41,104 nt of DNA, from the IMG/VR virus record IMGVR_UViG_2617270992_000014, one strand, 5' to 3'. Below, one piece after another: positions 1-15,762 of this stretch (position 1 is its first letter; every line of letters starts with the position of its first letter). A model generated the notes under the pieces. It was not told the DNA's origin. It saw only the letters and a list, made by a program, of their open reading frames with translations, and did not search any database. The stretch comes from a virus (taxonomy: Duplodnaviria; Heunggongvirae; Uroviricota; Caudoviricetes). Both the position numbers and the translations under genes were made by a program.

Positions 1-1119
1 TCAAATAACCAACTTAACCCATTCCTGACCTCGAGTATCGTTATAGCGATCGGTGGTTGCCTGGACTTTATGTCCTAGTAATGTTTTTGTATCGATACCC
101 TGTGCACGGTACAGTCGTTCTGATAGAGAGCGTTGTTCATGAAATGTTGGCGGAGTTTTTCCTGCTGGTGGAATTATCCCAGCCAGATCCCGTGCTTTGG
201 CAAAGTAGTCGCTCAGGTTGTCTTTACTCATCGGCTTCGGTTGTTTCTGGTGCCGACTATGGATTAGATATGGACTTAATATTCTGTCTCGGCACCCATC
301 AATAACTTCTTTTAACGTTATCCCAATGGCATCACAGCGTAGTGTAAGCGGTAACGCCAGACGCATTCCGGTTTTTCCCTGGGTGATATGCAAGTGTTCG
401 TTCCACACATCTGAAAAACGCATGTGGCAAATATCATCACGGCGTTGGCCAGTAACAATCGCAAGAAGCATTGCGTTACGGATAAAGTGTTTTTCAGGCG
501 TTGCGTTGTAAATTTTTTGCCAGTCTTCCAGAGTGAGCCTGGCTCTGGTTACTTTAGGGATCGGTTTACGGGTAGCCTCCGGAGGATTCCATCCGGGAGG
601 GACTTCCCCTGCATGCTGTGCTTCTTTATAAATATCAACCCATAATCCGCGATTTACTCTCGCTGTGCTGACCATGTCTTTATCCAGCCACTCGTCCAGT
701 ATTAATGCAAAGTCTCTTACTTCCAGTTCTTTCAATGGGTGGTTTCCCAGACGGGAAACCAGGAATGCAGCCATTCGCGCTTTTTCTTTGTGGGTTGTAG
801 CTGCAATATCTCCATTTTTCAGCCGCGCGTCCTGTATTTTCAGATATCGATCAACCCATGCCTTTAATCTGATACCCCGACGTTTTGTTGCTGACGGGCT
901 TTCATCAATTTTGCGCATGAAATATTCGGCTTCTGCTGCAGCTATTCGCTGATTGGCTGTGGAAGCGATTCTTTCAGCTTTGCCTTTGTCTGTTCCGAGT
1001 CCGTGAAATTTTCCAGTCACAGGGTTTTTATACTGGTAGTAAACTCTGCCAGTTCTGCGATCAAACTTTTCGTAAAGACCGGCTACGTCAGTGCTGTTTT
1101 TTCGTGGCCTCGGTGACAT
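1..1119 (-). CDS. int: Tyrosine-recombinase phage integrase
   Basis: 372-aa ORF with an integrase-like N-terminal arm region and C-terminal catalytic region; sits at the prophage edge immediately downstream of an excisionase-like gene. Assignment by motif recollection, not a search. Confidence 0.85.
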   Translation of the reverse strand: MSPRPRKNSTDVAGLYEKFDRRTGRVYYQYKNPVTGKFHGLGTDKGKAERIASTANQRIAAAEAEYFMRKIDESPSATKRRGIRLKAWVDRYLKIQDARLKNGDIAATTHKEKARMAAFLVSRLGNHPLKELEVRDFALILDEWLDKDMVSTARVNRGLWVDIYKEAQHAGEVPPGWNPPEATRKPIPKVTRARLTLEDWQKIYNATPEKHFIRNAMLLAIVTGQRRDDICHMRFSDVWNEHLHITQGKTGMRLALPLTLRCDAIGITLKEVIDGCRDRILSPYLIHSRHQKQPKPMSKDNLSDYFAKARDLAGIIPPAGKTPPTFHEQRSLSERLYRAQGIDTKTLLGHKVQATTDRYNDTRGQEWVKLVI

Positions 1120-1366
1120 GAGTTAAAATCTCCTTCAGTGCATCATCATCGCCAGTATGAATTTCCGGCGCAATTCCCGTTTCACCAGGTCCAACAAATA
1201 CTGCCCGGCGATCTATCAGCCAACGTCCACGAATTTTTTGTGGTCTTGGTACGATGTATCCAAGTTTTCCGTATTTCACCAGGGTAGTGTTTGTTATTGG
1301 GAGACTGAACCGTTTGGGTTTCCACTCATCGAGCGTTATCAGGTACTGTTCGCTCATGGTTATCAC
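1088..1366 (-). CDS. xis: Excisionase-like small DNA-binding protein
   Basis: 92-aa ORF overlapping the int start by about 30 nt. Segment YLITLDEWKPKR resembles the lambda Xis N-terminus as recalled. Typical xis-int coupling. Confidence 0.6.
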   Translation of the reverse strand: MITMSEQYLITLDEWKPKRFSLPITNTTLVKYGKLGYIVPRPQKIRGRWLIDRRAVFVGPGETGIAPEIHTGDDDALKEILTHVTEATKKQH

Positions 1367-1418: not shown

Positions 1419-3833
1419 TTAAAAATCAGCCTGACTCGGGATCAGTTTTTGCCAGATAGCTGAAACTTGTTTTGCCTGGTGACGTGCATCATCGAGTGCA
1501 TTGTGAGGTACACCTTCGAATGGAATAGTCATTCTGACATCAAAGCCAATGGAATTTCCCAGTTCAACAATTGTGCGTACATCGCGATCGTTGCAGTAGC
1601 GCCACGGGCAGGGGATGCCCTGTCGTTCATATGAACGGCGTAAAATTACGTTGTCGAAGTTGGCTCCATTTCCCCAGACTCGAACATAAAATCCACAGGA
1701 GTTTTCATCTATAAATTCCCGCAATTGCAGTAGTGCATCATCTAACGGAATTTCATCGGTCAGAATGGCAGATTGCGCCTCACGTGATTGCTTAAGCCAC
1801 CATTTAATGACGTCACGATCAATGACTCCGCCAGCAGTATCCAGATCGATGGTCTTGCTAAACTCCGGCCCCATCTCTCCGGTCTGCGGATCGAAAAATA
1901 TTGCACCTAATGAGATAATCGGGGCGTCGGGATTTTTTCCCATGGTTTCAAGGTCGATCATCAGGTGGTGCCGCACTCTGCTGGTGGATGTGATAACGTG
2001 ATGACCGTTCACCGCAATTAAGGGATCTGCTGTCTCGCCAGTTTCACTATCGCTGGCGTGGTCCTGAGCGCTGCCAGCATTCTCATTGTGCGGATGTTCA
2101 GCGCCTTCCATTTCCTCCGGATCATTTTCCTTAGCTTCAACCTGATTCTCTTCATCGAATATTTCTTGGTATGTTGCGTCGCCCATCACCGCACCACAGT
2201 CAGGGCAGTTACCCCCGCCAGTCTGGCCGCAGGCATTGCAGGCTATTTCCGGTTCCTGTTGCACTACTGGCTCAGGTTGTTTCACATCCGGGCTGTTTTT
2301 TTCCGTTTCTGGCTGGTTCTGGTACACAGAATCGCGAGTCTGGATCCCCTTCACCCATTTCGGATCGTTCGGGTCGCTAATCCCTGCAACAAATTCACCA
2401 CGTGATACTGCAAGCAGCTGATTGGCGTCAGGCTGGCTGATATTGGCTGCCTGCATAATTTTGTTTACTTCGTCAGCGGTAACTTTTACCTGATTAACCG
2501 GATCTATCTGTGCCTGAGCATCCAGCGATTGCGTGTCCTGGCGATGTTCAGTTGCATTCGGTTCCATTGTTTCAGCCGTTGCCTGTTCATCTGCCATTGC
2601 GTCAGACGGTTGTGATTTTTCCACATTATTTTTTTCTTCTTCTGTTTCGCGTTCAGCAGCCAGTTCGCGGTTAACTTCTTCCAGGATATCTTTTTCCGGC
2701 GTATGCCGGGCAGCTGTGAGAGTTTCCTTGCTGGGGTTCTCGTGATCAGTCTCTGTTAAATAGGCGTTGATATACCCCTGAAGACGTCCCGGGTAATGAT
2801 AAAACTCAGGGTGTGCGCTCCGGATAAGTGCAAAAATAGCGGCGCGGGAATAATCCAGGATACCCGGGATTGCGCGAAGTGCTGCGGACCATTCTTTGAA
2901 CGGACTTTCTTTCTTCCGGACGATTTCTTTTGCGCGACGATAAACGCTGCCCGGAATTTCATAAATATTAAAATCCATCGGAAGTGTGGCCGCTGCAATC
3001 TCCACATCCAGCGTATCGAAGGTGTGTACTAAATTCGGATTGCGATCGGTTTTGTTCCCTCCACCGGCATTAGCACCGGAAGCCGTGCGGGTGATGCGTG
3101 AAACACGATTTCCTTTCATCCACTCTTTTGTCAGCAGACCGCGATCGGTGTAGTCAGCGCCCAGGTATGCTTCGAAAAAAGCAGTCATCAGTCCCAGGTC
3201 TGAATTACCAGGATTAGGGAAAACTTTGTCAGTGTCACGAACCAGTTTGTGGAGATCGCGAATTTCCAGCGGTTCGAGTTGCGCTGCTTTATTTGAGATG
3301 GCCAGCGCGGTAACGGCGGGAAGTTTTTCATCCTGTGCGTTATGTAATGCGCGTAGTTCGCCCCGCGAAACGTGTGTGATCGGTTTTTCGCTGCCGTGCT
3401 GTGCCAGCCATCGAACAGGCAGAATCTGACCTGAAACCGGCAGGAGCATATTCTCCTCAATCTCAGCCATGTCTTCGCCGTTGACGTTGGTATTGTCAGT
3501 GCTGGCTGGTTTATCCTGAACAGAGGGCGAGGGCGCGATAAGCACCATTGTGATACCATCTTCCCCGCCTTTTTCGTATCGGTTGCAGAATTCGGTATCA
3601 AACACGCCTTCCGGAGGAAGGTCATTCACAACGGGTAAATGGACGCGAACAGGTTTTTTAAAATCCTCTTCGTCAAATCCTGCATCGTCCATTGCGACAA
3701 CACCGCGTGATATTGCAACCGATAATTTTTTTGCTGTGCGCCAGTAAAAACCGCCTTTAATCCCAAGACGTTTTCTGACTTTGTCATTTTTGGCTTCGTA
3801 ATACAGTGCAATTTCTTCTTTATCAGTGCTCAT
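1419..3833 (-). CDS. Large multidomain early protein with C-terminal DEDDh (DnaQ-like) 3'-5' exonuclease domain, central Cys4 zinc-ribbon and acidic low-complexity linker
   Basis: 804-aa ORF. C-terminal about 190 aa shows motifs IDLETMG, NGANFDNVIL and HNALDDARH consistent with DEDDh exonuclease motifs I-III. CNACGQTGGGNCPDCG is a zinc-ribbon motif. N-terminal about 550 aa unrecognised. Confidence 0.7.
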   Translation of the reverse strand: MSTDKEEIALYYEAKNDKVRKRLGIKGGFYWRTAKKLSVAISRGVVAMDDAGFDEEDFKKPVRVHLPVVNDLPPEGVFDTEFCNRYEKGGEDGITMVLIAPSPSVQDKPASTDNTNVNGEDMAEIEENMLLPVSGQILPVRWLAQHGSEKPITHVSRGELRALHNAQDEKLPAVTALAISNKAAQLEPLEIRDLHKLVRDTDKVFPNPGNSDLGLMTAFFEAYLGADYTDRGLLTKEWMKGNRVSRITRTASGANAGGGNKTDRNPNLVHTFDTLDVEIAAATLPMDFNIYEIPGSVYRRAKEIVRKKESPFKEWSAALRAIPGILDYSRAAIFALIRSAHPEFYHYPGRLQGYINAYLTETDHENPSKETLTAARHTPEKDILEEVNRELAAERETEEEKNNVEKSQPSDAMADEQATAETMEPNATEHRQDTQSLDAQAQIDPVNQVKVTADEVNKIMQAANISQPDANQLLAVSRGEFVAGISDPNDPKWVKGIQTRDSVYQNQPETEKNSPDVKQPEPVVQQEPEIACNACGQTGGGNCPDCGAVMGDATYQEIFDEENQVEAKENDPEEMEGAEHPHNENAGSAQDHASDSETGETADPLIAVNGHHVITSTSRVRHHLMIDLETMGKNPDAPIISLGAIFFDPQTGEMGPEFSKTIDLDTAGGVIDRDVIKWWLKQSREAQSAILTDEIPLDDALLQLREFIDENSCGFYVRVWGNGANFDNVILRRSYERQGIPCPWRYCNDRDVRTIVELGNSIGFDVRMTIPFEGVPHNALDDARHQAKQVSAIWQKLIPSQADF

Positions 3834-3909: not shown

Positions 3910-4167
3910 TTACGGCGCTGTTTTAAGTCCTGCCGGGATTTCGGTATTATCCATGCGAATAACTTTCTCGACCGGATAACAGTTACCGGGAATTTTCTGT
4001 TCTGCTGCGGCAGCCATACATTCTTTCATTGAACCATATATACCAGTAACCACATCAACAGGTTCGCCAGTATTAAGAAAAACTGTCAGAGTGAGAGCAA
4101 TTGCTGTATTCATTGCCAGCATCCTTTTTGCATCAGACGCAAACGGGCCAGCATTGAAACAATGCAT
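3910..4167 (-). CDS. Hypothetical small early protein (start uncertain, possibly at internal Met)
   Basis: 85-aa ORF in the leftward early operon with a hydrophobic central segment; no recognisable domain. Confidence 0.35.
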   Translation of the reverse strand: MHCFNAGPFASDAKRMLAMNTAIALTLTVFLNTGEPVDVVTGIYGSMKECMAAAAEQKIPGNCYPVEKVIRMDNTEIPAGLKTAP

Positions 4168-4433
4168 ATTTGATTTAATAGCTCCCGTTCGTGTTTTCTC
4201 TTATTAATGGCATCTTCAGTAAATACAGGGTTACTGATTCTGACACCAATTTCAAAACAACCTTCAGACGTATTGACGTTTGGTAATAACGTTTCCATTA
4301 TCGCGTCCTCAACAATGAATTTTGTGATGCGGTGCCTGGTGCCTCCAGGTGACGTTAACCAGTTAACAATTAACGCCGGAATACAGGGACCCGCCTGCAA
4401 GTACCTACCCATAAGTATTGATACGGAGAACAA
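4110..4433 (-). CDS. Hypothetical small early protein (true start probably at the internal METLLPN Met)
   Basis: 107-aa ORF, AT-rich, same orientation as neighbours; overlaps the previous ORF in another frame. Confidence 0.3.
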   Translation of the reverse strand: MFSVSILMGRYLQAGPCIPALIVNWLTSPGGTRHRITKFIVEDAIMETLLPNVNTSEGCFEIGVRISNPVFTEDAINKRKHERELLNQICIVSMLARLRLMQKGCWQ

Positions 4434-4624
4434 ATGGTCTTTTAACTGTTCCGCGTGCGCTTAGCCGCATTCACCGCATCACAAAATTCACTTTAAAAAG
4501 GGCGGACATCAGCCAGCAATGAAAACTGATGCCGCCAAAGGTGCTAATCAACATGAAGTATTACGTAAGATGAATTCAACAAAACGCAACGAGATGGCAT
4601 CACTTATTGAAATAGCTATTGATT

Positions 4625-5311: not shown

Positions 5312-5668
5312 TTACTCGAGAGGAAATTGGTTATGAATACAATCAAGTTTTCTTGCCCAGAATGTGGTGGCGAAGTCTTTGACACATCCTTTAAGCCGCA
5401 GGGCTCTGACAGTTTCGCGGGAGCCATCTGCAAAAATTGTGGTCACCTTGTAACTGAAGATGAGTCCTCGCAGTTCGATGACGAAATCGTTGACAATATC
5501 TTCGGTGCACTCACCAGAGACTTTCTGAAATAAAGGCGCATACCGCTTAGTTACCGCTCTGATAACTCTTACCTGTCCGGTAATGGCGCTGATGTCAATA
5601 TAAAGCGCCATTGCTGCTTCTTTGCCGATCCTGGGATGCCTTCCATTCTGATGTTTGACTTCGCCCAC
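5312..5668 (-). CDS. Hypothetical first gene of the leftward early operon (GTG start); competes with the antisense Zn-ribbon ORF
   Basis: 118-aa ORF with GAGGA about 8 nt upstream of the GTG on the minus strand. It is not arginine-rich and does not look like an N antiterminator. Fully contains a plus-strand ORF. Confidence 0.3.
   Translation of the reverse strand: MGEVKHQNGRHPRIGKEAAMALYIDISAITGQVRVIRAVTKRYAPLFQKVSGECTEDIVNDFVIELRGLIFSYKVTTIFADGSRETVRALRLKGCVKDFATTFWARKLDCIHNQFPLE
5327..5533 (+). CDS. Small Cys4 zinc-ribbon protein encoded antisense to the leftward early operon
   Basis: 68-aa ORF with CPECGG and CKNCGH motifs (classic C4 zinc ribbon); AGAGGA about 8 nt upstream of the ATG; acidic C-terminus. 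Confidence 0.4.
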   Translation: MVMNTIKFSCPECGGEVFDTSFKPQGSDSFAGAICKNCGHLVTEDESSQFDDEIVDNIFGALTRDFLK

Positions 5669-13651: not shown

Positions 13652-14710
13652 GTGCGGGTATTAGTGACTCCTGAAATTGCTCACCGTCTGGGGATTGTAC
13701 TTTTCAGGCCCGGTCCTGATGCGATGCCTTTGTTTATGCAGGGGCGTGTGCTGGTGGAGCCGGAACCCAAAAGCATGCGAGGTTTGCCATCCGGAGTCGT
13801 TCCTGCCGTTCGCCAGCCGCTGGCGGAGGATAAATCATTACTGCCATTTTTCAGCGATGAGCGGGTAATTCGTGCTGCCGGTGGCACTGGTGCACTGTCT
13901 GACTGGCTCCTGCGTCATGTTAAATCCTGCCAGTGGCCTCATAGTGACTACCATCACAGTGAAATCGTCATACATCGTTATGGTACCGGAGCGATGGTGT
14001 TGTGCTGGCACTGCGACAACCAACTGCGTGACCAGACATCCGAATCACTCGAGCAACTTGCTCATCAAAATCTGTCTGCATGGATGATTGACGTCATACG
14101 CAATGCAATGAATGGTACGCAAGAGCGGGAATTATCGCTGGCTGAGTTATCCTGGTGGGCGGTCTGCAATCAGGTGGCGGGCGCGCTACCGGAGGCAGTA
14201 TTACGTCGTTCGTTGGGATTACGTACGGAAAAAATCCGCTCTGTGTACCGTGAGAGCGACATCGTACCGGGAGAACAGACAGCCACCAGCATACTGAAGC
14301 AGCGCACAAAAAATATTGTGCTACCGCCTCACGCCCACCAGCAACAGAACTCACCACAGGAAAAGACGGTGGTCAGCATTGTCGTTGATCCGGAGTCTCC
14401 GACTCAGTATCTCCAGCGTCAGAAACCACAGCGGGAAGAGATGCCCGTATACACGCGCTGGGTAAAAACGCAGAAATGCATGACTTGTGGCAATCAGGCA
14501 GATGATCCGCATCACATCATTGGCTATGGACTGGGAGGGATGGGAACAAAGACTGACGATTTGTTTGTTATTCCGCTGTGCCGTAAATGTCATAACGAAC
14601 TGCACGCCGGGGTAAAAGATTTTGAAGAAAAACACGGCAGCCAGCTGTTGTTGCTGATTCGTTTTTTAATGCACGCGAGAAATTCGGGTGTCCTGAAGTG
14701 GAAAGCATGA
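13652..14710 (+). CDS. DUF968-family protein (YdfU-like) with C-terminal HNH-like Cys/His motif
   Basis: 352-aa ORF; C-terminal CMTCGNQADDPHHIIGYGLGGMGTKTDDLFVIPLCRKCHNELH; sits immediately upstream of rusA as DUF968 genes do in lambdoid prophages (from memory). Confidence 0.7.
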   Translation: MRVLVTPEIAHRLGIVLFRPGPDAMPLFMQGRVLVEPEPKSMRGLPSGVVPAVRQPLAEDKSLLPFFSDERVIRAAGGTGALSDWLLRHVKSCQWPHSDYHHSEIVIHRYGTGAMVLCWHCDNQLRDQTSESLEQLAHQNLSAWMIDVIRNAMNGTQERELSLAELSWWAVCNQVAGALPEAVLRRSLGLRTEKIRSVYRESDIVPGEQTATSILKQRTKNIVLPPHAHQQQNSPQEKTVVSIVVDPESPTQYLQRQKPQREEMPVYTRWVKTQKCMTCGNQADDPHHIIGYGLGGMGTKTDDLFVIPLCRKCHNELHAGVKDFEEKHGSQLLLLIRFLMHARNSGVLKWKA

Positions 14711-15076
14711 ATGACTGAACGCATAGAATTTGTTTTGCCTTACCCGCCGACGGTGAACACCTACTGGCGACGTCGTGGCAGTACATATTTTGTATCAAAA
14801 GCCGGTGAGCGTTATCGCCGTGATGTGGCGCTCATTGTTCGCCAGCAGCGACTGAAATTGAACCTGTCCGGAAGGCTGGCAATAAAAATTATTGCAGAGC
14901 CGCCGGATAAGCGCCGTCGGGACCTGGACAATATTCTGAAAGCACCACTGGATGCACTGACACATGCGGGGCTGCTCATAGACGATGAGCAGTTTGATGA
15001 AATCAATATTGTGCGCGGTCAGGTCGTTCCTGGTGGTCGGTTGGGGATAAAAATCACAGGGCTGGAGTGCGCATGA
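14711..15076 (+). CDS. rusA: RusA Holliday-junction resolvase
   Basis: 121-aa ORF; PYPPTVNTYWRRRG, RRRDLDNILKAPLDAL and GGRLGIKIT correspond to conserved RusA segments as recalled. Confidence 0.85.
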   Translation: MTERIEFVLPYPPTVNTYWRRRGSTYFVSKAGERYRRDVALIVRQQRLKLNLSGRLAIKIIAEPPDKRRRDLDNILKAPLDALTHAGLLIDDEQFDEINIVRGQVVPGGRLGIKITGLECA

Positions 15077-15762
15077 ATAACCAGTATTTACAGTTTGTGC
15101 GTGAACAGCTCATTATCGCCACCGCCGATTTGAGTGGAGCAACAAAAGGTCAGCTTGAAGCCTGGCAGGAGAATGCCATGTTTGATACAGGGCGTTACAG
15201 GCGTAAAAAAATCCGGTACCGCGATGAAGTGACCGGAAAAATGATCACGCGGGATAATCCACCAATCCCGGGGAAACAATCGCTGGCGAAGGGGACGTCA
15301 ATTCCTCTGGTAAGTCAGGTTGAGTTTTCGACATCATCATGGCGACGGGCAGTTCTGTCTCTTGAAGAACATCATAAAGCCTGGTTGTTGTGGTGTTACA
15401 GCGGAAATATTTGCTGGGAACACCAGATCGCGATAACACAGTGGGCATGGGAAGAGTTTAAGGCTCATTCTGGCAACAGGAAAATTGCAGAGAAAACACG
15501 GGAACGCCTGAAAAAATTAATCTGGCTGGCGGCGCAGGATGTGAAGAGCGAGCTGGCTGGGAGTGAGACTTATGAATATCAGGAACTGGCTGAATTGATG
15601 GGGGTTGCTAAATCCACATGGACAGAGACATACCGACCTCGCTGGGAGATTATGCGTGACTGTGTTACAGGCCTGGACAAAGATGCGCTTATATCGGCAA
15701 TGCACTTACGTTCACAACAAAAGGTATCTAATACCAGGTTAAATATTGCAAAACCGAACTGA
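15073..15762 (+). CDS. Late-gene antiterminator Q (82/Qin-type family)
   Basis: About 230-aa ORF directly downstream of rusA (ATGA overlap), followed by a strong intrinsic terminator as expected for the pR'/tR' region. Family assignment from size, position and partial motif recollection. Confidence 0.7.
   Translation: MNNQYLQFVREQLIIATADLSGATKGQLEAWQENAMFDTGRYRRKKIRYRDEVTGKMITRDNPPIPGKQSLAKGTSIPLVSQVEFSTSSWRRAVLSLEEHHKAWLLWCYSGNICWEHQIAITQWAWEEFKAHSGNRKIAEKTRERLKKLIWLAAQDVKSELAGSETYEYQELAELMGVAKSTWTETYRPRWEIMRDCVTGLDKDALISAMHLRSQQKVSNTRLNIAKPN

What the first reader, a model, noticed from the sequence alone, without database searches (positions are those of the whole stretch)
1419..3833. 804-aa early protein fusing an unknown N-terminal region, a zinc ribbon and a DnaQ-like exonuclease, in place of a canonical recombination module
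I could not recognise homologues of lambda Exo/Bet/Gam or RecE/RecT in the leftward early operon. Instead the first large gene after xis encodes a multidomain protein whose C-terminal about 190 aa carry DEDDh exonuclease motifs (DLETMG, FDNVIL, HNALDDARH), preceded by a Cys4 zinc ribbon and a long acidic linker, with an unassigned N-terminal region of about 550 aa. Its role is unclear; recombination, anti-defence nucleic-acid degradation and host takeover are all possible.
Basis: partly seen in the sequence, partly recalled or inferred. Interest (0 to 1): 0.55.

Follow-up and report, generated by a model that had tools for sequence, protein, structure and literature searches.

The report
RecE relative carrying DnaQ-type exonuclease
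This prophage gene is a widespread, already catalogued E. coli variant of the RecE recombination nuclease in which the usual 5'-to-3' nuclease end is replaced by a T4 DexA-like 3'-to-5' exonuclease; its biological role has not been tested.

Summary
The 804-aa ORF at 1419-3833 (-) is real, and its C-terminal DEDDh exonuclease is confirmed: Pfam PF16473 at E 6.6e-64, all five catalytic residues present, and T4 DexA as the closest solved fold.

The "unknown" N-terminal ~600 aa is not unknown. It is the N-terminal region of RecE (exonuclease VIII), including the Cys4 knuckle and the acidic linker. Homology to Rac RecE stops at residue ~605, where RecE's PD-(D/E)XK nuclease is replaced by the DEDDh domain.

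An identical protein is already in NCBI. Matches covering at least 80% of the gene occur in 1100 of 5426 complete E. coli genomes and in isolated phages such as Tritos.

In all 8 loci examined the DEDDh form lies directly before xis/int with no RecT. All 3 PD-(D/E)XK forms examined are followed by RecT. Many other relatives have no detectable nuclease domain.

The prophage has no recognisable annealase or anti-RecBCD gene and is Chi-rich (14 sites against 1.85 expected). That matches the published "Tritos" nuclease-only class.

The two folded N-terminal domains have no match among solved structures or predicted viral structures. The role is untested. I favour 3'-end DNA processing during lytic growth, with phage exclusion as the main rival. 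This is an ordinary, known gene of uncharacterised function.

The parts
1419..3833 (-). Whole ORF, 804 aa plus stop: RecE N-terminal region fused to a DEDDh exonuclease
   Evidence: ORF list. Pfam PF06630 + PF16473. NF007259 on aa 1-607. An identical protein is in NCBI as 'enterobacterial exodeoxyribonuclease VIII family protein'.
3534..3833 (-). N1: folded alpha/beta domain, aa 1-100
2634..3476 (-). N2: folded, mostly helical core, aa 120-400. It carries the most conserved motifs of the family (RTxSGAxAxGGxxTDR, PMDFDIY, RRAKEI, PGILDYSRA).
   Evidence: AF2 pLDDT is mostly 88-98. Consensus motifs come from the alignments. The core aa 190-385 finds only 155 clusters among 1.84 billion representative proteins. 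There is no solved-structure or viral-structure match.
1980..2633 (-). Acidic linker predicted to be disordered, aa 401-618, shared with Rac RecE up to about aa 605
   Evidence: Full-length AF2 gives pLDDT < 50 for 404-424, 426-452, 463-480 and 491-618. pI is 4.15. BLASTP to RecE is near-identical over aa 470-605. dN/dS is 0.44-0.58.
2196..2240 (-). Cys4 knuckle, CNAC-x7-CPDC (C532, C535, C543, C546), inside the linker
   Evidence: Read from the sequence. Conserved in Rac-SA53 RecE. Absent from the Citrobacter phage Chris1 homologue. Not confidently modelled.
1422..1979 (-). DEDDh 3'-5' exonuclease domain, aa 619-804, with catalytic D627, E629, D727, H777, D782
   Evidence: PF16473 at E 6.6e-64. 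Catalytic columns are conserved against T4 DexA. AF2 block pLDDT is mostly 77-93. The best Foldseek matches are DexA 8ken/8kel at E 3e-8. dN/dS is 0.13-0.21.
1980..1987 (+). Chi site (GCTGGTGG) antisense to codons 616-618, at the boundary between linker and DEDDh domain
   Evidence: The same offset, 561 nt from the gene's 3' end, is seen in L002, L007 and L016.
3910..4167 (-). Upstream gene in the same operon: YdfD-like DUF1482 protein
   Evidence: PF07358 at E 1.3e-19.
4110..4298 (-). dicB. The DicB match covers aa 46-107 of the mechanical 107-aa ORF 4110-4433.
   Evidence: PF05358 at E 5.3e-38.
4500..4547 (-). DicF-like small RNA upstream of dicB, below the Rfam gathering score
   Evidence: RF00039 at 38.5 bits against a gathering score of 48, E 3e-7 in a local scan. 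80% identity to the K-12 dicF-dicB region.
1088..1366 (-). Excisionase, immediately downstream of the exonuclease
   Evidence: PF07825.
1..1119 (-). Tyrosine integrase at the end of the leftward operon
   Evidence: ORF and translation. The same int-xis-exo order is seen in relatives.

Best explanation
Shown: this is a mosaic member of the RecE (exonuclease VIII) family.
- It keeps the RecE-type N-terminal region: two folded domains (aa 1-100 and 120-400), then a ~215-aa acidic disordered linker containing a Cys4 knuckle.
- From about residue 605 onward, RecE's C-terminal PD-(D/E)XK 5'-to-3' nuclease is replaced by a T4 DexA/Rv2179c-type DEDDh domain.
- It is the last large gene of the dicF-dicB-ydfD early-left operon, directly before xis and int.
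- It has no RecT partner.
- The prophage has no recognisable annealase or anti-RecBCD gene and is Chi-rich.

Inferred:
- The protein is an active, metal-dependent 3'-to-5' exonuclease made on induction or infection.
- The RecE-type N-terminal module brings the flexibly tethered nuclease to whatever target that module recognises in RecE. That target is unknown; DNA ends or a host DNA-metabolism factor are my guesses.
- There it trims 3' DNA ends.
- Homologous recombination itself is left to host RecBCD/RecA acting at the phage's Chi sites.
- The enzyme is an accessory end-processing activity, for example removing 3' tails so that ends stay usable by RecBCD. It is not a self-contained recombination module.
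For: Identity:
- NF007259 matches aa 1-607; PF06630 and PF16473 both hit.
- BLASTP to Rac RecE ends at residue 605. After that point RecE has a PDDEXK domain (PF12684) and this protein does not.

Activity:
- All five DEDDh residues are conserved.
- The domain model is confident and T4 DexA is its closest solved fold.
- The domain is under purifying selection, dN/dS 0.13-0.21. The N-terminal domains show dN = 0 against a 95%-identical relative.
- The gene is intact in isolated phages such as Tritos.

Modularity of the N-terminal core, among 88 long representative proteins:
- 22 carry the PDDEXK nuclease, 15 carry DEDDh, and 51 show neither.
- 49 of those 51 have no Pfam nuclease domain.

Gene neighbourhood:
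- DEDDh forms sit directly before xis/int, without RecT, in 8 of 8 loci (window).
- PDDEXK forms are followed by RecT in 3 of 3 loci.

Link to DNA metabolism:
- A standalone homologue lies in the replication/recombination module of a lytic phage, next to a RecA-like NTPase, a Cas4-type nuclease and a helicase.
- DexA acts on DNA (PMC12153337).
- Full-length RecE is more active than its nuclease domain alone in linear-linear recombination (PMC11611040).

No recombination module, plus Chi:
- No annealase, Gam or SSB family was found in the early ORFs scanned.
- There are 14 Chi sites against 1.85 expected, 10 of them on the + strand.
- This fits the nuclease-only 'Tritos' class and the RecBCD-dependent growth model of PMC12315714.
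Against: - No biochemical or genetic data exist for this protein or any close relative that I could find.
- 3'-to-5' exonucleases usually inhibit recombination rather than promote it, as PMC12315714 points out.
- The same paper declines to count DnaQ-type nuclease genes near int as recombination-module genes.
- In that paper 68 lambdoid phages with no nuclease at all are also Chi-rich, so Chi use does not need this gene.
- The target of the RecE N-terminal module is unknown, and its fold matched nothing informative.
- The Pfam family is named for an exoribonuclease, and RNase T, Orn and REXO2 are the next structural neighbours. RNA substrates are not excluded.
- Two recent papers show DEDDh exonucleases from bacteria or prophages acting in phage defence.
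Confidence: 0.45

Rival explanations
1. It is a phage-exclusion or defence nuclease. The DEDDh domain degrades nucleic acid of competing phages, and the RecE-derived N-terminus acts as an auxiliary or targeting domain. The targets would be either modified DNA, as reported for the E. coli DexA homologue EcD (the 'HREX' strategy), or the 3' ends of RNA phage genomes, as reported for the ISG20-like 'TONDO' exonucleases.
For: - EcD, an E. coli DexA homologue, cleaved T4 DNA and protected cells against T4 (PMC12153337).
- TONDO exonucleases are encoded in prophages, often carry auxiliary domains of unknown function, and defend against MS2 and Q-beta (PMC13344964).
- This domain's closest solved fold is DexA.
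- The gene sits in the accessory region next to int, in the same operon as dicB.
Against: - There is no PADLOC hit.
- The DexA residues reported to recognise 5hmC (W152, D169) align to C747 and S761. D90, whose loss defines the EcD type, is retained as D699. The alignment is only 26% identical, so this mapping is uncertain.
- Close fused relatives have Y, C or H at the W152 position. Standalone 190-aa relatives mostly keep W.
- The gene lies in the early-left operon. In K-12 Qin the transcripts from the dicB promoter, which run on into ydfD and the ydfE pseudogene, are repressed by DicA (PMC11430063). A lysogen would probably not express it.
- About 600 aa are shared with a recombination protein.
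- Neither the EcD nor the TONDO sequences could be obtained for direct comparison.
Confidence: 0.25
2. It acts mainly on RNA or small nucleic acids. Possible roles are an exoribonuclease that trims host or phage transcripts, a nuclease that degrades short oligonucleotides for nucleotide recycling, or an anti-defence enzyme that removes a nucleic-acid component of a host immune system.
For: - PF16473 is named for the Rv2179c 3'-5' exoribonuclease.
- RNase T, oligoribonuclease and REXO2 follow DexA among the structural matches.
- T4 DexA contributes to scavenging host DNA (PMC12153337).
Against: - The best sequence and fold match is a DNA exonuclease, DexA.
- Nothing in the locus points to a specific RNA or signalling target.
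- As far as I know, temperate lambdoid phages are not known to degrade host DNA wholesale.
- Nothing explains why such an enzyme would need the RecE N-terminal module.
Confidence: 0.12
3. It replaces the recombination module functionally. It would be a complete RecE-like recombinase that promotes phage recombination by itself or with a host annealing protein, only with reversed resection polarity.
For: - It occupies the same operon position as recE in Rac.
- PMC12315714 lists the Tritos type as a nuclease-only recombination module.
Against: - 3'-to-5' resection leaves 5' tails, which to my knowledge neither RecA-loading pathways nor known phage annealases use.
- No annealase is present in any of the 8 DEDDh loci examined (window).
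- RecT goes with the PDDEXK domain, not with the N-terminal module.
- The Chi enrichment points to reliance on the host RecBCD.
Confidence: 0.08
4. It is a decaying mosaic remnant with no function, produced by illegitimate or linker-mediated recombination in a prophage.
For: - The family is highly mosaic.
- Truncated copies exist: K-12 ydfE is cut by IS2, and the gene is split in phage 606R7.
Against: - The ORF is intact.
- The catalytic residues are intact.
- dN/dS is 0.13-0.21 in the DEDDh domain.
- Matches covering at least 80% of the gene occur in 1100 complete genomes.
- Viable isolated phages carry it.
Confidence: 0.03

Closest known systems
RecE / exonuclease VIII of the Rac prophage (NCBIfam NF007259; Pfam PF06630 N-terminus; C-terminal nuclease domain described in the review PMC11611040)
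   Same: - About 600 aa of N-terminal region are shared, including the conserved helical core, the Cys4 knuckle and the acidic linker (44% identity overall, near-identical over aa 470-605).
- It holds the same place in the early-left operon, upstream of int.
   Different: - RecE's PD-(D/E)XK 5'-to-3' dsDNA exonuclease domain is absent and replaced by a DEDDh domain.
- The score is below the equivalog cut-off, 935 against 1269 bits.
- No RecT follows.
Phage Tritos TRITO_27, the prototype of the nuclease-only class in PMC12315714, and the E. coli K-12 Qin pseudogene ydfE
   Same: - The operon is the same: int-xis-exonuclease-ydfD-dicB-DicF.
- Both have a PF16473 C-terminus.
- Tritos aa 245-822 aligns to aa 270-803 here at 62% identity.
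- Both phages lack an annealase and are Chi-rich.
   Different: - The first ~250 aa of the Tritos protein are unrelated by BLAST to the RecE-type N-terminus here and give no PF06630 hit.
- K-12 ydfE is 99% identical to the first 256 aa of the Tritos-type protein; the ydfE pseudogene annotation runs into an IS2E element. It does not match this protein.
T4 DexA (exonuclease A; PDB 8kel/8ken)
   Same: - Same DEDDh fold and catalytic residues.
- Both are phage-encoded 3'-to-5' exonucleases.
   Different: - Identity is only about 26%.
- DexA is a 227-aa standalone protein with extra loops.
- The residues reported to recognise 5hmC are not conserved here.
- DexA has no RecE-type N-terminus.
Standalone ~190-aa prophage '3'-5' exonuclease' (PF16473), e.g. 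phage PhiR40_1 XSB42377.1
   Same: - 60-61% identical to the C-terminal domain here.
[quoted passage not shown]
- Widespread in Enterobacterales.
   Different: - It has no N-terminal module.
- It mostly keeps a Trp at the position of DexA W152, where this protein has Cys.
EcD/HREX (PMC12153337) and the ISG20-like TONDO exonucleases (PMC13344964)
   Same: They are DEDDh exonucleases of bacteria or prophages. TONDOs often carry auxiliary domains of unknown function.
   Different: - The sequence criteria given for EcD are not met.
- No sequence of either group was available, so relatedness beyond the superfamily is unknown.
- The TONDO candidate search kept only hits under 500 aa.

Membership tests
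RecE / exodeoxyribonuclease VIII (NF007259 equivalog) | N-terminal region homologous to RecE (PF06630 plus the rest of model positions 1-603) | tested here: met
   NF007259 aligns aa 1-607 to model positions 1-603. PF06630 hits at E 1.9e-26. BLASTP to Rac-SA53 RecE gives E 1e-132.
RecE / exodeoxyribonuclease VIII (NF007259 equivalog) | C-terminal PD-(D/E)XK 5'-3' exonuclease domain | tested here: not met
   The alignment to RecE stops at residue 605. RecE has PF12684 and this protein does not. Model positions 604-877 are unmatched.
RecE / exodeoxyribonuclease VIII (NF007259 equivalog) | Whole-protein score at or above the curated cut-off | tested here: not met
   935 bits against a cut-off of 1269.
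RecE / exodeoxyribonuclease VIII (NF007259 equivalog) | Adjacent RecT annealase partner | tested here: not met
   xis follows directly. No RecT family hit among the early ORFs scanned. The PDDEXK-type relatives do have RecT.
DEDDh (DnaQ-like) 3'-5' exonuclease, PF16473 / DexA group | Profile match above the family threshold | tested here: met
   PF16473 at 215.3 bits against a cut-off of 27, covering the full-length profile 1-177.
DEDDh (DnaQ-like) 3'-5' exonuclease, PF16473 / DexA group | Catalytic Asp-Glu-Asp-Asp plus His | tested here: met
   D627, E629, D727, H777 and D782 align with DexA D7, E9, D119, H186 and D191.
DEDDh (DnaQ-like) 3'-5' exonuclease, PF16473 / DexA group | RNase H-like DEDD fold | tested here: met
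   AF2 block pLDDT is mostly 77-93 for aa 622-800. Foldseek finds DexA at E 3e-8, TM 0.64-0.73 normalised to the target, followed by RNase T, Orn and REXO2.
DEDDh (DnaQ-like) 3'-5' exonuclease, PF16473 / DexA group | 3'-to-5' exonuclease activity and its substrate (DNA or RNA) | not testable with these tools
   Needs a biochemical assay.
HREX / EcD-type 5hmC-specific defence exonuclease (PMC12153337) | Trp and acidic residue equivalent to DexA W152 and D169 conserved | tested here: not met
   These align to C747 and S761. The alignment is 26% identical, so the D169 column is uncertain. Close relatives have Y, C or H at the W152 position.
HREX / EcD-type 5hmC-specific defence exonuclease (PMC12153337) | Loss of the tetramer-forming Asp (DexA D90) | tested here: not met
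   D699 is retained at that column.
HREX / EcD-type 5hmC-specific defence exonuclease (PMC12153337) | Protection against T4 and selective cleavage of 5hmC DNA | not testable with these tools
   Needs an experiment. The EcD sequence could not be retrieved.
TONDO (ISG20-like anti-RNA-phage exonucleases, PMC13344964) | Sequence membership in the ISG20-like DEDDh clade, and defence against MS2/Q-beta | not tested
   No TONDO sequences were available in the text held. Only the general architecture, DEDDh plus an auxiliary domain in a prophage, is similar.
'Tritos' class of lambdoid phages (nuclease only; PMC12315714 Table 1) | A nuclease gene present, with no annealase, SSB or anti-RecBCD gene | tested here: met
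   Pfam and PHROG scans of the early-left and early-right ORFs find none. The unknown small ORFs match only PHROGs of unknown function.
'Tritos' class of lambdoid phages (nuclease only; PMC12315714 Table 1) | Abundant Chi, mostly on the top strand | tested here: met
   14 Chi against 1.85 expected, and 0 of 100 shuffles reach 14. Ten are on the + strand, which I take as the lambda-map top strand from gene orientation. The published range for the class is 21/6 to 7/2.

The most novel reading that the evidence does not exclude
The RecE N-terminal region is a portable module in its own right, with a fold that matched nothing in the libraries searched. It delivers interchangeable nuclease domains of opposite polarity (PD-(D/E)XK 5'-to-3', DEDDh 3'-to-5') or none at all to one common, still unknown target. 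In lambdoid phages that lack both an annealase and a RecBCD inhibitor and are Chi-rich, the DEDDh version would then be a phage-encoded helper of host RecBCD recombination, for example by trimming 3' tails so RecBCD can load. That would be the opposite of the familiar strategy of inhibiting RecBCD.
Probability: 0.15. Interest if true: 0.6.

Novelty: already known. Interest (0 to 1): 0.3.

Why it matters
The gene itself needs only correct annotation. It should be labelled as a RecE N-terminal region fused to a DexA-like 3'-5' exonuclease. The labels "exodeoxyribonuclease VIII" and "unknown" are both misleading.

The useful point is comparative. The same RecE-type N-terminal core occurs with a 5'-to-3' nuclease plus RecT, with a 3'-to-5' nuclease and no RecT, and with no nuclease. 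That makes the long-standing question of what the RecE N-terminus does easier to test, because its role can be separated from nuclease polarity and from RecT.

The gene is also an obvious candidate to test in the recently described lambdoid phages that depend on RecBCD and Chi. Matches covering at least 80% of it occur in about a fifth of complete E. coli genomes, so any function found would apply widely.

Tried and rejected
- **EcD sequence.** I tried to recover the sequence of EcD (the characterised E. coli DexA homologue, HAK9828821.1) from the primers in the paper's supplement. There was no match in the window with up to 3 mismatches, in IMG/VR, in complete E. coli genomes with an N-padded 22-mer (I ran no positive control for this trick), or in metagenome contigs. 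None of the 390 proteins fetched contains the predicted 'IDTET' start. Relatedness to EcD stays unresolved.
- **K-12 remnants.** I expected the K-12 pseudogenes ydfE and exoD to be fragments of this gene. tblastn found no match to either. ydfE instead matches the different N-terminus of the Tritos-type protein.
- **Related loci.** The search for related loci with the core domain returned only 8 loci, which was not enough for statistics.
- **Defence models.** PADLOC gave no hit.
- **Literature.** Searches for Rv2179c plus prophage and for PF16473 found nothing.
- **Own promoter or terminator.** The promoter and terminator scan gave no more sites than shuffled sequence and no convincing promoter for the gene itself.
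- **Chi as breakpoint.** I rejected the idea that the Chi site at the domain boundary marks the mosaic breakpoint. The shared nucleotide block with Tritos extends upstream to about aa 448 and the block shared with Rac covers about aa 396-589, so the breakpoints lie in or before the linker, not at Chi.
Full report
**1. Observation**

The ORF is real: 1419..3833 on the minus strand, ATG start, 804 aa.

The C-terminal domain is a DEDDh exonuclease.
- Pfam PF16473 (Rv2179c-like 3'-5' exoribonuclease domain) covers aa 622-794 at E 6.6e-64.
- Aligned to T4 DexA, the five catalytic residues are D627, E629, D727, H777 and D782.

The Cys4 motif is C532/C535/C543/C546. It lies inside a strongly acidic stretch, aa 401-618, with pI 4.15.

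The N-terminal region is not unassigned.
- The NCBIfam model for RecE/exodeoxyribonuclease VIII (NF007259) aligns aa 1-607 to model positions 1-603 at 935 bits. That is below the 1269-bit cut-off because the last 270 model positions are unmatched.
- PF06630 (Exonuc_VIII) hits aa 56-189.
- BLASTP against RecE of phage Rac-SA53 aligns aa 23-605 at E 1e-132. The match is near-identical over the Cys4 knuckle and the acidic tail, and it stops at '...ETGE..P'.
- Beyond that point RecE has its PDDEXK nuclease (PF12684), while this protein has the DEDDh domain.

**2. Anatomy**

AlphaFold2 on aa 1-420 with a 107-sequence alignment gave mean pLDDT 86. It shows an alpha/beta domain (aa 1-100) and a mostly helical domain (aa 120-400).

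The full-length model shows the following.
- Most of aa 404-618, including the Cys4 knuckle, falls below pLDDT 50 and is probably disordered.
- The DEDDh domain, aa 622-800, is modelled with confidence.

Fold searches:
- Foldseek against solved structures puts T4 DexA (8ken/8kel, E 3e-8) first, then RNase T, oligoribonuclease and REXO2. All of these align only to the C-terminal domain.

**3. Distribution and mosaicism**

- An identical protein is in NCBI, from E. coli 2-052-05_S3_C1, named 'enterobacterial exodeoxyribonuclease VIII family protein'.
- 1100 of 5426 complete E. coli genomes have a match covering at least 80% of the gene. The annotations read 'exonuclease', '3'-5' exonuclease' or '3'-5' exoribonuclease domain-containing protein'.
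- Isolated phages carry close relatives or parts of the gene (Tritos, HannyBb, mEp460_ev081, PhiR42_1 and several vB_Eco phages).
- The DEDDh domain alone is found by tblastn in 1519 phage records, including the T-even dexA genes.
- The conserved N-terminal core (aa 190-385) is a narrow family: 155 clusters among 1.84 billion representative proteins.

Among the 88 representatives of that core that are at least 450 aa long:
- 22 carry the RecE-type PDDEXK nuclease;
- 15 carry the DEDDh domain;
- 51 carry neither, and 49 of those 51 have no Pfam nuclease domain.

The last group probably corresponds to the nuclease-less 'RecE-2' proteins mentioned in PMC12315714.

The gene is mosaic at several points.
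- Tritos shares aa 270-803 at 62% identity but has an unrelated first ~250 aa.
- The Chris1 homologue lacks the Cys4/acidic segment.
- The nucleotide block shared with Rac recE is the linker region.

Selection differs by region.

| Region | dN/dS or dN |
|---|---|
| DEDDh domain | 0.13-0.21 |
| N-terminal folded domains, against a 95%-identical relative | dN = 0 |
| Linker | 0.44-0.58 |

The folded parts are therefore under purifying selection, and the linker is less constrained.

**4. Context**

The operon order is DicF-like RNA, dicB, ydfD-like DUF1482 gene, this gene, xis, int.

The neighbour pattern depends on the nuclease type.

| Form | Loci examined | What follows |
|---|---|---|
| DEDDh | 8 of 8 (window, E. 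coli EC21Z-048, phage 606R7, Tritos, Citrobacter phage Chris1, three distant representatives) | xis/int directly, no RecT |
| PDDEXK | 3 of 3 | RecT directly |
| No nuclease | 2 of 2 | Other small genes, then xis/int or int |

So RecT goes with the PDDEXK domain, not with the N-terminal module.

The rest of the prophage:
- Pfam and PHROG scans of the early ORFs find no annealase, SSB or anti-RecBCD family. RusA and a DUF968/HNHc protein are present.
- The window has 14 Chi sites against 1.85 expected from shuffles, 10 of them on the + strand.
- This matches the picture in PMC12315714. There, lambdoid phages without an anti-RecBCD function accumulate Chi and are proposed to use RecBCD for recombination-dependent growth. 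'Tritos' is the prototype of a nuclease-only class.
- The same paper notes DnaQ-type nuclease genes near int and does not count them as recombination-module genes.

**5. Mechanism**

Shown: the identity, the domain swap, the intact catalytic site, purifying selection, and the RecT-less position next to int in a Chi-rich phage without an annealase.

Inferred: the protein is an active 3'-to-5' exonuclease made early in lytic growth. Its nuclease is tethered by a long flexible linker to a RecE-type module that recognises an unknown target.

I favour a role in processing DNA 3' ends, as an accessory to host RecBCD/RecA recombination (confidence about 0.45). The reasons are:
- the 600-aa homology to RecE;
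- the placement of a standalone homologue in the replication/recombination module of a lytic phage;
- the DNA substrates of DexA.

The points against are:
- 3'-to-5' exonucleases usually hinder recombination;
- nuclease-free phages are also Chi-rich.

The main rival is phage exclusion (about 0.25). EcD, an E. coli DexA homologue, protected cells against T4. ISG20-like exonucleases with auxiliary domains, some encoded in prophages, protect against RNA phages.

Against that rival:
- The residues reported to recognise 5hmC are not conserved (C747 and S761), and the tetramer Asp is retained. This mapping rests on a 26%-identical alignment.
- PADLOC gives no hit.
- The operon is repressed in the K-12 Qin prophage.

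The lesser rivals are an RNA or small-substrate role, a complete reversed-polarity recombinase, and a dead remnant.

**6. Comparison and verdict**

The protein works like a DexA-type exonuclease attached to RecE's N-terminal region.
- It is a member of the PF16473 DEDDh family.
- It belongs to the broader RecE N-terminal family.
- It fails three defining features of RecE proper: the PDDEXK domain, the equivalog score and the RecT partner.

It should not be called exonuclease VIII.

It is already catalogued and its class has been noted in the literature, so I rate it 'already known', of uncharacterised function, with interest 0.3.

The most novel reading the evidence does not exclude is that the N-terminal region is a portable targeting module, and that the DEDDh form assists RecBCD-Chi recombination rather than blocking it. 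I put that at probability about 0.15.

Noticed in passing
window 1-41104; Chi at 164, 1980, 7183, 7228, 13750, 17310, 17417, 21890, 25424, 31817 (+) and 14283, 14335, 17767, 19578 (-): There are 14 Chi sites (GCTGGTGG) against 1.85 expected from shuffles, and no shuffle reaches 14. Ten are on the + strand. This fits the published class of Chi-rich lambdoid phages that lack an anti-RecBCD gene.
   Followed up: partly
window 1980-1987 (+); L002 6562-6569, L007 5562-5569, L016 5562-5569: One Chi site lies inside the gene, antisense to codons 616-618, at the boundary between linker and DEDDh domain. Three relatives have it at the same offset. It does not coincide with the mosaic breakpoints inferred.
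   Followed up: partly
window 4500-4547 (-): A DicF-like small RNA lies upstream of dicB. It scores 38.5 bits against a gathering score of 48, so the default Rfam scan missed it. It is found at E 3e-7 in a local scan, and the region is 80% identical to the K-12 dicF-dicB region.
   Followed up: yes
window 4110-4433 (-) and 3910-4167 (-): The mechanical dicB ORF is 107 aa with a TTG start, but the DicB family matches only aa 46-107, so the real start is probably internal (near 4298). Its 3' end overlaps the start of the ydfD-like ORF.
   Followed up: no
window 5312-5668 (-) and 5327-5533 (+): Two overlapping antisense ORFs both match phage protein families of unknown function. One is a 118-aa ORF (phrog_21318, E 5e-66). 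The other is a 68-aa double-CxxC zinc-ribbon ORF (phrog_4852, E 5.5e-10). Which one is expressed was not resolved.
   Followed up: partly
window 19378-25493 (+): The packaging and head module is HK97-like: an HNH endonuclease (19378-19803) just before the small terminase, then the large terminase, the portal and an HK97-type capsid protein. From memory, HK97-type cos ends have 3' overhangs. Whether a 3'-to-5' exonuclease interacts with such ends was not explored.
   Followed up: no
L027 3079-3846 (E. coli K-12 Qin, ydfE pseudogene): K-12 ydfE is 99% identical to the first 256 aa of the 823-aa Tritos-type exonuclease, and the ydfE pseudogene annotation runs into an IS2E element. K-12 therefore carries a dead copy of the sister variant. 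K-12 exoD (DLP12) shows no similarity to the protein studied here.
   Followed up: yes
L008 (contig JAGZPX010000007.1, labelled as a Veillonella parvula MAG): A contig binned as Veillonella parvula encodes a core domain 95% identical to this E. coli prophage protein. This is most likely a binning error or contamination.
   Followed up: no
aa 747 of the protein (window about 1593-1595) and relatives P0001-P0120, P0271-P0390: At the position of DexA W152, the forms fused to a RecE N-terminus have Y (64), C (50) or H (4). Standalone 190-aa relatives mostly keep W (76 of 89 with the motif). The meaning is unknown.
   Followed up: partly
window 13652-15762 (+): The early-right operon encodes a 352-aa DUF968/HNHc_6 protein, a RusA Holliday-junction resolvase and antiterminator Q. 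RusA is the only recognisable recombination-related phage gene besides the exonuclease.
   Followed up: no
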